A stretch of 64,000 nt of DNA, taken from Octopus vulgaris (taxonomy: Eukaryota). Positions 15,901 through 16,801 of this stretch are shown here, in pieces (positions within the stretch are counted from its first letter, which is position 1; each line of letters starts with the position of its first letter). The position numbers were made by a program. The DNA lies in contig OX597819.1 of assembly GCA_951406725.2 (NCBI GenBank), positions 73,284,001 through 73,348,000 of the forward strand. The letters are read 5' to 3'.

Positions 15901-16801
15901 CTCTGACTTTCACTAGCTGTGATCTTAACTCTTTCTATATTTGCTCTTGTGTTATATACCCACGTCTATTTTATACACACCTTAGCCACTAACAATGAGT
16001 GTATAATGGCATTTTTCTGTTTGTAGTCCAGAAGATGATGAATGCCGACTCCATAGGTTTGTATGTGTTATCGATCCCCTCCTCTGCTCAGTTCATTTTG
16101 AATGCCAATATTTTATTTAATTCATTGCCATTCCATCATTTCTGTTGGCTTCAGTCACTGTCTCATGTTGGCTTGTGCTTGTATTATTATTATTATTTTT
16201 ATTATATAAATATGGTTTATCATTTTCTTTTTTCCCTTTCTTTATTGTGCTTATCACATCTAAACCCAATCAACATTATATACTACTGCGTTTTTTTACA
16301 GACGTGTATAAGTGGATTGAGTTAGTAGTTTTAGTTTGTCATTTTTGGTTCTTAAGGCAATTTTTTTTTTTTTAGTATTGGTTGTCAGTATTTAGTGAAA
16401 TATTTTATTGCCATTCCATTGTGATCAATTTAGTTTTCAAGTGTGCATGGAAGAAATGGTGAGCATTGTAGCAGTGGTAAAATAAGCTCCTGGCAAACTA
16501 ATTGCAGACTTGGTTTTTTTTTCATTATCTTTTTGTTACAACTGTTTTGTTTTACTCACCACACTGCTGTTGCTGCTGCTGCCCTTTGGAAAGGCATGAA
16601 TGTCTTGACTTCTTTTAATTCCTTTTTTTTCAGTCAGTAAAGTTAAACAGTCACACCGATCTTAAAATGTAAAGCTGTTGACCTGTATCAGTTCAAAGAT
16701 ATTTTTGAAAATTTAAATGTCACCCAGAAGTTTAATTATCAAAATCATGAGCCAGCATGGAAACCAAACACTAAAGCTGATGAAGAAAACTATTATTGAT
16801 G

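What the first reader, a model, noticed from the sequence alone, without database searches (positions are those of the whole stretch)
16000..16470. Three candidate microexons in UBXN7, two of them frame-coupled
Seen: the phase-1 intron 12723-19280 is mostly SINE/MITE sequence, but a repeat-free island holds three AG/GT-bounded segments of 30 nt (16027-16056), 19 nt (16302-16320) and 17 nt (16442-16458). The 30-nt segment inserts VQKMMNADSI in frame. The 19- and 17-nt segments each shift the frame alone but together add 36 nt, DVYKWIDVHGRN, with no stop. Inference: a combinatorial microexon switch that edits the linker between the UBA and UAS domains of a p97 adaptor, where including only B or only C would give a frameshifted, probably NMD-targeted mRNA. 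The next exon (66 nt) is also symmetric and could be skipped. I know of no description of this cluster.
Basis: partly seen in the sequence, partly recalled or inferred. Interest (0 to 1): 0.78.

Follow-up and report, generated by a model that had tools for sequence, protein, structure and literature searches.

The report
One known microexon, two chance segments
Of three tiny exons proposed in the octopus UBXN7 gene, the 30-base one is a real alternative exon already present in public gene models of octopuses, a cuttlefish and, at the same junction, other molluscs, while the 19- and 17-base pair has nothing behind it beyond what chance gives.

Summary
The window matches Octopus vulgaris UBXN7.

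Segment A (16027-16056, 30 nt) is a genuine alternative microexon, but it is not new. Public isoform pairs differing only by this 10-residue insert exist for O. vulgaris, O. bimaculoides and O. sinensis. A cuttlefish pair has an 11-residue version. A chiton (8 aa) and two scallops (14 aa) carry alternative inserts at the same junction.

Segments B and C have no such support. None of 71 fetched proteins contains any of seven 5-mers from them. The 471-nt island alone holds 94 AG..GT segments and 305 open frame-coupled pairs, and 30 pairs score at least as well as B+C on a crude splice score. C's acceptor also has a competing TAG 8 nt upstream, which would break the coupling.

B's acceptor context is good (145-nt AG-free zone, U-run, UGC), so a small chance remains. 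No cephalopod genome or RNA-seq data could be reached. Verdict: A is already known; the B/C switch is unsupported.

The parts
12655..12722 (+). Constitutive UBXN7 exon upstream of the intron (68 nt, ends in phase 1). It encodes the invariant VRAPIP...LV motif.
   Evidence: Sequence read. tblastn of O. vulgaris protein P0020. Invariant columns V76 R77 P79 I80 P81 L87 V88.
15989..15993 (+). CTAAC, a consensus branch-point-like sequence about 34 nt upstream of A's acceptor. This is an inference from the motif only.
   Evidence: Read. CUAAY is the branch-point consensus used in PMC8797185 (passage). The AG at 15998-15999 lies 6 nt after it, close enough to be bypassed according to PMC1431707 (passage).
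16027..16056 (+). Microexon A: a 30-nt, phase 1-1 cassette exon inserting VQKMMNADSI. It is real and already annotated.
   Evidence: tblastn gave 100% identity to P0020 residues 95-105. Isoform pairs in 3 Octopus species differ only by this insert.
16122..16139 (+). Cluster of 4 YCAY motifs within 25 nt, 66-83 nt downstream of A's donor. It may be a Nova-type intronic enhancer. This is a lead, not shown.
   Evidence: It is the only such cluster in the intron and one of 28 on the + strand of the window, but 98 of 1000 shuffles of 16057-16470 reach the same density.
16124..16136 (+). First copy of the exact 13-mer ATTGCCATTCCAT.
   Evidence: The 13-mer occurs only twice in the 64 kb, both in the island on the + strand. 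None of 500 shuffles gave a complex exact repeat of 13 nt or more. The repeat finder family D1.
16155..16299 (+). 145-nt AG-free, 68% pyrimidine tract that ends at B's acceptor.
   Evidence: One of 5 of 3803 AG-to-AG gaps of 145 nt or more in the window. 272 of 10000 mononucleotide shuffles are AG-free. 8 zones of 120 nt or more exist in the window; none of the other 7 ends at one of the eleven exon starts mapped, and the exon for residues 215-243 was not located.
16302..16320 (+). Segment B: 19 nt, with a good acceptor context (T-run, CAG, UGC at -14..-12) and a weak donor (TGA|GTTAGT). It is an unsupported candidate.
   Evidence: Its 5-mers are in none of 71 proteins.
16407..16419 (+). Second copy of the 13-mer, 23-35 nt upstream of C's acceptor.
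16442..16458 (+). Segment C: 17 nt, with a good donor (ATG|GTGAGC) and a poor acceptor (AAG, with a TAG 8 nt upstream at 16431-16433). It contains TGCATG at 16444-16449. It is an unsupported candidate.
   Evidence: Its 5-mers are in none of 71 proteins.
19281..19346 (+). Constitutive 66-nt exon (phase 1-1) encoding the invariant SVFDGFRDF motif.

Best explanation
The window carries Octopus (most likely O. vulgaris) UBXN7. Segment A (16027-16056) is a genuine, frame-preserving 30-nt cassette microexon. Its inclusion adds ten residues to the linker between two invariant short motifs (VRAPIP..LV and SVFDGFRDF), which lie between the UBA domain and the thioredoxin-like UAS domain of this p97 adaptor. 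Both forms, with and without A, are already in public gene models. An alternative insert at this same phase-1 junction is annotated in cephalopods, a chiton and scallops, so the event is probably old in molluscs. The likely effect, by inference, is a change in the spacing and local sequence of a flexible linker, tuning how the N-terminal ubiquitin-binding part is positioned relative to the rest of the adaptor. The repeat-free DNA around A is most simply read as the regulatory flank of an alternative exon. It holds a branch-point CTAAC, a YCAY cluster, a duplicated 13-mer and a long pyrimidine-rich AG-free tract. Segments B and C are most likely ordinary intron sequence that happens to be AG/GT-bounded and frame-compatible.
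For: Shown here:
- All exon-internal residues of O. vulgaris CAI9724396.1 (P0020) match the window. O. sinensis and O. bimaculoides differ at single residues.
- 7 of 7 tested isoform pairs differ by one insert at the same junction and by nothing else: O. vulgaris, O. bimaculoides and O. sinensis 10 aa; Acanthosepion 11 aa; Liolophura 8 aa; Pecten and Mizuhopecten 14 aa (names).
- All of these inserts start with V or G, residues whose codons start with G. That fits the split G codon of a phase-1 junction (inference).
- The insert lies at residues 95-104, outside all solved domains. PDB chains cover query residues 10-52, 136-279 and 449-527.
- In the AlphaFold2 model, residues 50-123 have pLDDT below 50 and no secondary structure.
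- In human UBXN7, loss of the UBA domain gradually reduced stimulation of p97-Ufd1-Npl4, and further N-terminal deletions abolished it (PMC12965308, passage seen).

Against B and C being more than chance:
- The island holds 305 open frame-coupled pairs.
- 30 pairs in the island and 182 in the intron score at least as well, and 168 of 200 shuffles give at least one such pair.
- On my crude splice score the true exon A ranks 29th, B 50th and C 202nd of 1265.
- None of 71 proteins holds any of seven B/C 5-mers.
- A TAG lies 8 nt upstream of C's AAG. With closely spaced AGs the preceding base matters (PMC1431707 passage). That TAG outcompetes AAG is my recollection.
- Using that TAG gives a 25-nt segment that no longer pairs in frame with B.
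Against: Annotation is only indirect transcript evidence, and I saw no reads. Very short exons of 17-19 nt are easily missed by aligners and gene predictors, so their absence from models is weak evidence.

B's acceptor looks better than chance in some respects. It has a 145-nt AG-free zone (5 of 3803 in the window; 272 of 10000 composition-matched shuffles), a T7 run, CAG, and a UGC 12-14 nt upstream. PMC8797185 lists these features for eMIC-dependent microexons. The island also holds more good-scoring coupled pairs than its shuffles: 30 against a mean of 6.4, and only 2 of 200 shuffles reach 30. I put this down to real pyrimidine runs.

The regulatory reading of the flank rests on motifs that are not individually significant. 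The YCAY cluster is reached in 98 of 1000 shuffles, and TGCATG occurs 40 times against 59 expected.

The molluscan inserts share position but little sequence, so common descent is not shown. The AlphaFold alignment had only 23 rows, so low pLDDT does not prove disorder.
Confidence: 0.85

Rival explanations
1. One reading: B and C are real microexons that are co-included. Together they add 12 residues, and inclusion of only one gives a frameshifted, NMD-prone mRNA, so that A, B and C form a combinatorial switch.
For: The arithmetic holds. B has a strong acceptor context with a 145-nt AG-free zone and a UGC near the 3' splice site (feature list in PMC8797185). C has a good donor, ATG|GTGAGC. A UGC-containing 13-mer lies 23-35 nt upstream of C. 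Both segments sit in the longest repeat-free stretch of the intron.
Against: None of 71 fetched proteins holds any of seven 5-mers from B, C or their junction. These include all 11 members of the Octopus cluster from three annotated species. The coupling is one of 305 in the island, and 30 pairs score at least as well. B's donor is weak at 3 of 7 consensus positions. C's acceptor is an AAG with a competing TAG 8 nt upstream, and using that TAG breaks the coupling. All 3 O. vulgaris models join A or the upstream exon directly to 19281.
Confidence: 0.03
2. B's acceptor is used, but not as proposed. Either B alone, or a 157-nt exon from B's acceptor to C's donor (16302-16458), acts as an unproductive 'poison' cassette that introduces a premature stop and lowers UBXN7 output.
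For: The best acceptor (B) and the best donor (C) of the pair are the outer sites. Together they bound a 157-nt segment, a size I recall as typical for exon definition, while the inner sites are the weak ones. That segment has an in-frame stop 71 nt in, and B alone puts a stop in the 66-nt exon. Exons with long AG-free zones are more often alternatively spliced, and an NMD-linked event went unseen for a long time (PMC1431707 passages).
Against: There is no transcript or protein evidence of any kind here, and protein databases would not show NMD isoforms. The other 7 AG-free zones of 120 nt or more in the window do not end at any of the eleven exon starts mapped, so the feature is not diagnostic.
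Confidence: 0.05
3. A is a gene-model artefact that spread between annotations by homology and is not a spliced exon.
For: I saw only annotated proteins, not reads. The O. vulgaris isoform names ('-like isoform X1/X2') suggest naming by homology.
Against: Independent annotations give the same alternative junction: RefSeq for O. bimaculoides, O. sinensis, Liolophura, Pecten and Mizuhopecten, and GenBank for O. vulgaris and Acanthosepion. The inserts have lineage-specific sequences and lengths of 8, 10, 11 and 14 aa, which copying between annotations cannot produce. A has proper AG/GT borders and a CTAAC upstream.
Confidence: 0.03

Closest known systems
Annotated UBXN7 isoform pairs of Octopus: XP_014772020.1/XP_014772021.1 in O. 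bimaculoides, XP_029637452.1/XP_029637453.1 in O. sinensis, CAI9724396.1/CAI9724395.1 in O. vulgaris
   Same: Segment A is exactly this event. The same 10 residues are inserted after residue 94, and they are the only difference within each pair.
   Different: Nothing differs for A. B and C are in none of these models.
Alternative inserts at the same UBXN7 junction in other molluscs: Acanthosepion pharaonis, Liolophura sinensis, Pecten maximus, Mizuhopecten yessoensis
   Same: They sit at the same position between the two invariant motifs, are the sole difference between the isoforms, are short (8-14 aa), and start with a residue whose codon starts with G.
   Different: The sequences are only loosely alike: cephalopod VQKM.., chiton VHRE.., scallop GLAH... 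Homology as opposed to repeated origin was not tested, and I could not read their genomic structure.
eMIC (SRRM3/4)-dependent neural microexons
   Same: They are short, frame-preserving cassette exons in a disordered linker of a conserved protein. A has a strong CUAAC branch-point-like sequence, and B's acceptor shows the UGC and the long AG-free zone listed for this class (PMC8797185 passage).
   Different: A has no UGC in the 50 nt upstream of its acceptor, and its AG-free zone is only 25 nt. Neural specificity and dependence on the factor cannot be tested here.
Nova-regulated cassette exons with intronic YCAY clusters
   Same: Four YCAY motifs lie within 18 nt, 66-83 nt downstream of A's donor. 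YCAY clusters act as position-dependent enhancers or silencers (PMC2014790 passages).
   Different: The cluster is reached in 98 of 1000 shuffles. That paper covers vertebrates only. That a cluster downstream of the exon promotes inclusion is my recollection of the Nova RNA map, not something I read here.

Membership tests
UBXN7/UBXD7-type p97 adaptor (UBA-UAS-UBX) | N-terminal UBA-like domain | tested here: met
   PF14555 UBA_4 at residues 13-49, E 1.8e-08. PDB 2dal matches residues 10-52.
UBXN7/UBXD7-type p97 adaptor (UBA-UAS-UBX) | Central thioredoxin-like UAS domain | tested here: met
   PF13899 at residues 161-241, E 2e-15. PDB 2dlx (UBX domain-containing protein 7) matches residues 136-279, E 5.6e-60.
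UBXN7/UBXD7-type p97 adaptor (UBA-UAS-UBX) | C-terminal UBX domain | tested here: met
   PF00789 at residues 447-526, E 4.3e-18. PDB 5x3p and 1wj4 also match.
UBXN7/UBXD7-type p97 adaptor (UBA-UAS-UBX) | UIM motif that binds neddylated cullins | not tested
   No Pfam UIM hit was listed. A conserved helix at 294-307 with invariant E294 Q297 A301 I302 A304 S305 L306 is present. Calling it a UIM rests on recollection and on the title and abstract of PMC3349548 (listing).
Alternative cassette microexon (segment A) | Very short exon with AG/GT borders that keeps the frame | tested here: met
   30 nt, TAG|...|GTTTGT, phase 1-1. The usual size limit for a microexon (27-51 nt or less) is recalled.
Alternative cassette microexon (segment A) | Both the inclusion and the skipping form are recorded | tested here: met
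   Isoform pairs exist in three Octopus species, differing only by the insert.
Alternative cassette microexon (segment A) | Direct transcript (junction-read) evidence and tissue pattern | not testable with these tools
   No RNA-seq or cephalopod genome collection is offered. The supplements of the one preprint that uses O. bimaculoides splicing data are closed.
Alternative cassette microexon (segments B and C) | Recorded in any transcript-derived protein | tested here: not met
   None of 71 fetched proteins holds any of seven 5-mers from B, C or their junction. Only exon-by-exon searches were possible.
Alternative cassette microexon (segments B and C) | Splice signals better than those of decoys in the same intron | tested here: inconclusive
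   On a crude score B ranks 50th and C 202nd of 1265, while the true exon A ranks 29th. B's AG-free zone is unusual. C's acceptor has a competing upstream AG.
eMIC/SRRM4-type neural microexon | [quoted passage not shown] | tested here: inconclusive
   A has CTAAC but no UGC, and an AG-free zone of 25 nt. B has a UGC at -14..-12 and an AG-free zone of 145 nt, with only a near-consensus CTAAA. C has an AG-free zone of 6 nt. The feature list comes from a PMC8797185 passage.
Nova (YCAY) target exon | Cluster of three or more close YCAY motifs near the regulated exon | tested here: inconclusive
   Four YCAY lie within 25 nt at 16122-16139, but 98 of 1000 shuffles reach this. The cluster definition comes from PMC2014790.

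The most novel reading that the evidence does not exclude
B (16302-16320) and C (16442-16458) are genuine, still unannotated microexons that must be spliced in together to keep the frame. Octopus UBXN7 would then carry a three-part switch (A, B+C) in its UBA-UAS linker, with single inclusion serving as an NMD off-state. B's acceptor, with its 145-nt AG-free zone, U-run and nearby UGC, would be the regulated entry point.
Probability: 0.03. Interest if true: 0.6.

Novelty: already known. Interest (0 to 1): 0.15.

Why it matters
As it stands this is an annotation-level fact: octopus UBXN7 has an alternative 30-nt exon that is already in RefSeq. It is mildly interesting that an alternative insert at the very same junction recurs in cephalopods, a chiton and scallops. 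The junction lies between two motifs that are invariant across the 23 aligned molluscan and arthropod sequences, in a linker no solved structure covers. That marks this linker as a regulated, functionally unexplored part of a p97 adaptor whose N-terminal region is needed for its activity in vitro (PMC12965308 passage). The case also shows that AG/GT borders plus an open frame carry almost no information in an AT-rich intron. The true microexon could not be told from decoys by those criteria.

Tried and rejected
- Rfam over the whole intron with permissive thresholds gave 4 matches, all below gathering scores and none in 16000-16470.
- The tRNA scan of the intron found 0 genes, so tRNA-derived SINE heads are not evident.
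- TGCATG (the Rbfox motif, recalled) lies inside C but is not enriched: 40 in the window against 59 expected.
- ORFs in the island on both strands are short or low-complexity, and none suggested another gene.
The exon-2 search brought only 3 proteins and no new forms.
- I considered an in-frame 36-nt exon from B's acceptor (16302-16337). Its donor, TTT|GTCATT, is poor, and its peptide 5-mer is in 0 of 71 proteins.
- Literature: UBXN7 + microexon gave 0 papers. Microexon + octopus gave 4 papers, 3 listed; the one I opened does not mention UBXN7. Microexons + cephalopod gave 1 paper, where the word appears only in a reference title. UBXN7 + alternative splicing + exon gave 35 papers; the 12 listed titles deal with circRNA, cancer and the like in vertebrates.
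- Not used: the search of protein representatives and the ESM Atlas cannot resolve isoforms. Genome contigs holds only bacteria and archaea. Complex prediction was not relevant because no binding claim is made.

Full report
**1. The observation.** I read the three stretches directly. The upstream exon is 12655-12722 and ends TTG|GTAAGT with one base of a codon left over (phase 1). The downstream exon is 19281-19346, 66 nt, phase 1 to phase 1.
- A is 16027-16056: 30 nt, preceded by TAG and followed by GTTTGT.
- B is 16302-16320: 19 nt, preceded by CAG and followed by GTTAGT.
- C is 16442-16458: 17 nt, preceded by AAG and followed by GTGAGC.

A script that joined the pieces by coordinates confirmed the arithmetic. 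A alone, B+C, and A+B+C stay open through the next two exons. B alone puts a stop in the 66-nt exon. C alone puts a stop in the exon after it. Leaving out the 66-nt exon keeps the frame. The window has no N, and nothing in it was taken for human.

**2. Whose gene it is.** I searched the window's exons one at a time. I left out the step of searching a joined model of my own. As a result the B+C junction peptide could only be looked for as short strings in proteins already fetched.

The last exon (52 aa) found 14 proteins among 28 candidates. The best was UBX domain-containing protein 7 isoform X1 of Octopus bimaculoides at 98%. Its 90% cluster has 11 members from O. bimaculoides, O. sinensis and O. 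vulgaris. tblastn of the O. vulgaris protein CAI9724396.1 (P0020) against the window matched eleven exon stretches, with residues 1-18 and 215-243 not located. Six matched at 100%, and the others fell below 100% only where the match ran past a splice site. O. sinensis has K where the window has E in the last exon, and O. bimaculoides differs in two places. The window is therefore O. vulgaris or something very close. Pfam gives UBA at 13-49, thioredoxin-like UAS at 161-241 and UBX at 447-526.

**3. Segment A is real, and it is already annotated.** In each of O. vulgaris, O. bimaculoides and O. sinensis there is a pair of public isoforms. The longer equals the shorter plus the ten residues VQKMMNADSI after residue 94, with no other difference. 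Three further Octopus models with other N-termini also carry the insert, and one O. vulgaris model starts at the methionine inside A.

The cuttlefish Acanthosepion pharaonis has a pair differing by an 11-residue version, VQKMITADATI. The search with the UAS exon (40 proteins among 41 candidates) and a look at eight clusters brought more pairs. The chiton Liolophura sinensis X1/X2 differ by 8 residues. Pecten maximus and Mizuhopecten yessoensis X1/X2 differ by 14 residues. In all 7 of 7 pairs tested, the single insert sits at the same junction between the two conserved motifs.

The inserts begin with V or G, whose codons begin with G, as a phase-1 junction with a split G codon requires (inference). 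Argonauta (only X2 was found), Potamilus, Physella, the Ruditapes isoforms, two Centruroides vittatus isoforms and two Dermacentor variabilis isoforms show no insert there. Ruditapes instead varies at the next junction.

No paper on this turned up. UBXN7 + microexon gave 0 papers. Microexon + octopus gave 4 papers, and the one using O. bimaculoides splicing data does not mention UBXN7 in its text. Its supplements are closed and may list the exon.

**4. What A probably does.**
- The insert lies between two blocks that are invariant in 23 aligned molluscan and arthropod sequences: V76 R77 P79 I80 P81 L87 V88, and S114 F116 D117 F119 R120 D121 F122 E125.
- Solved structures found by sequence cover residues 10-52 (UBA), 136-279 (UAS) and 449-527 (UBX), but nothing between 53 and 135.
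- An AlphaFold2 model built on those 23 sequences has pLDDT below 50 and no secondary structure over residues 50-123 (mean pLDDT 61.8). The alignment is shallow, so this suggests a flexible linker but does not prove one.
- In a reconstituted human system, UBXN7, unlike FAF1 and FAF2, lost activity gradually when its UBA domain was removed and completely with further N-terminal deletions (PMC12965308, passages seen).

My inference is that inclusion of A lengthens the spacer between two short conserved motifs from about 25 to 35 residues and changes its local sequence. That would tune how the N-terminal part works with the rest of the adaptor. This step is inferred, not shown.

**5. Segments B and C against chance.** AG...GT borders are everywhere in this AT-rich intron.

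| Region | AG..GT segments (3-60 nt) | Multiples of three, open in phase 1 | Open frame-coupled pairs (60-1000 nt apart) |
|---|---|---|---|
| Whole intron | 1266 | 292 | 20876 |
| 16000-16470 | 94 | 19 | 305 |

(All counts.)

I made a crude splice score of my own: pyrimidines at -22..-5, Y at -3, a penalty for an AG at -14..-3, and matches to MAG|GTRAGT. It is not a trained model. On it the true exon A ranks 29th, B 50th and C 202nd of 1265. So these criteria do not even pick out the real exon.

Thirty open coupled pairs in the island and 182 in the intron score at least as well as B+C. 168 of 200 dinucleotide shuffles of the island give at least one such pair. The island does hold more such pairs than its shuffles (mean 6.4; 2 of 200 reach 30). 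I attribute this to real pyrimidine runs that shuffling breaks up.

That set includes all eleven Octopus models.

C's acceptor AAG has a TAG 8 nt upstream. Closely spaced AGs compete, and the preceding base matters (PMC1431707 passages). I recall that TAG is preferred over AAG. The TAG would give a 25-nt segment that no longer restores the frame with B.

**6. What speaks for B.** B's acceptor closes a 145-nt AG-free, 68% pyrimidine tract.
- Only 5 of 3803 AG-to-AG gaps in the window are that long.
- Only 272 of 10000 mononucleotide shuffles of the tract lack AG.
- A T7 run, CAG and a UGC at -14..-12 follow.
- Long AG exclusion zones, UGC near the 3' splice site and long pyrimidine tracts are listed as features of eMIC-dependent microexons (PMC8797185 passage). 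Large AG-free zones also go with alternative splicing (PMC1431707).

Against this, 8 zones of 120 nt or more exist in the window, and none of the other 7 ends at one of the eleven exon starts mapped. B's donors are also weak. I keep about 5% for an unproductive use of B's acceptor, either alone or with C's donor as a 157-nt stop-containing exon.

**7. The island itself.** By self-BLAST, 38% of the intron matches elsewhere in the window. The longest unmatched stretch, 15653-16772, surrounds A. Besides A it holds several features:
- CTAAC lies about 34 nt upstream of A's acceptor.
- Four YCAY motifs lie within 25 nt, 66-83 nt downstream of A's donor. This is the only such cluster in the intron, but 98 of 1000 shuffles reach it.
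- An exact 13-mer occurs only twice in the 64 kb, both times here on the + strand, at 16124-16136 and 16407-16419. None of 500 shuffles gave such a repeat.

The simplest reading is that this is the regulatory flank of an alternative exon. Which factor binds there is not shown.

**8. What stayed unchecked.** Conservation of the intron and junction reads, the two decisive tests, are therefore open. Exons under 40 aa could not be used as queries.

**9. Verdict.** A is a true alternative microexon that is already in public annotation and is shared, by position, across molluscs. The B/C frame-coupled switch is not supported and is what chance produces. Novelty: already known. Interest is low.

Noticed in passing
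window 16848-17100: A MITE-like palindrome. Its arms of 99 nt are 93% complementary with 19 nt between them, plus outer 21-nt arms. The minus-strand RNA of 16915-17030 folds at -65.3 kcal/mol (z = -16). This explains weak, sub-threshold hits to miRNA families on both strands.
   Followed up: partly
window 16124-16136 and 16407-16419: The exact 13-mer ATTGCCATTCCAT occurs only twice in the 64 kb, both in the island and on the gene's strand (0 of 500 shuffles). By eye the likeness extends upstream (AATATTTTAT) with a 7-nt gap in one copy. Its function is unknown; it may be a splicing regulatory element or a small local duplication.
   Followed up: partly
protein P0015 (O. vulgaris CAI9724397.1), maps to window 16036 onward: A third annotated O. 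vulgaris isoform (430 aa) starts at the methionine inside microexon A. This implies a transcript with a different or frame-breaking 5' part that still includes A.
   Followed up: no
proteins P0062/P0045 versus P0063 (Ruditapes philippinarum): In this clam the isoforms vary at the next junction, after the exon homologous to 19281-19346, and not at the A junction. The UBA-UAS linker seems to be a recurrent site of short alternative inserts in molluscs.
   Followed up: no
window 9925-10742 (-), 56089-56418 (+), 62663-63699 (+): Transposon remnants. Reverse-transcriptase pieces: RVT_1, E 2e-08 at 10437-10742. A DDE_3 transposase piece: E 1.4e-10. DDE_1 transposase pieces: E 1e-09 at 63145-63699.
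   Followed up: partly
window 13123-13322, 13523-13922, 14323-14622, 15123-15322, 18423-18522 and many places outside the intron: Short interspersed repeats with up to about 20 copies within the 64-kb window by self-BLAST. Long ORF-like stretches of one family (for example 59306-59869 and 61111-61629) have no Pfam match.
   Followed up: partly
window 18591-18753 and six other places: Seven further AG-free zones of 120 nt or more that do not end at one of the eleven exon starts mapped. This shows that such zones arise without annotated exons in this genome.
   Followed up: yes
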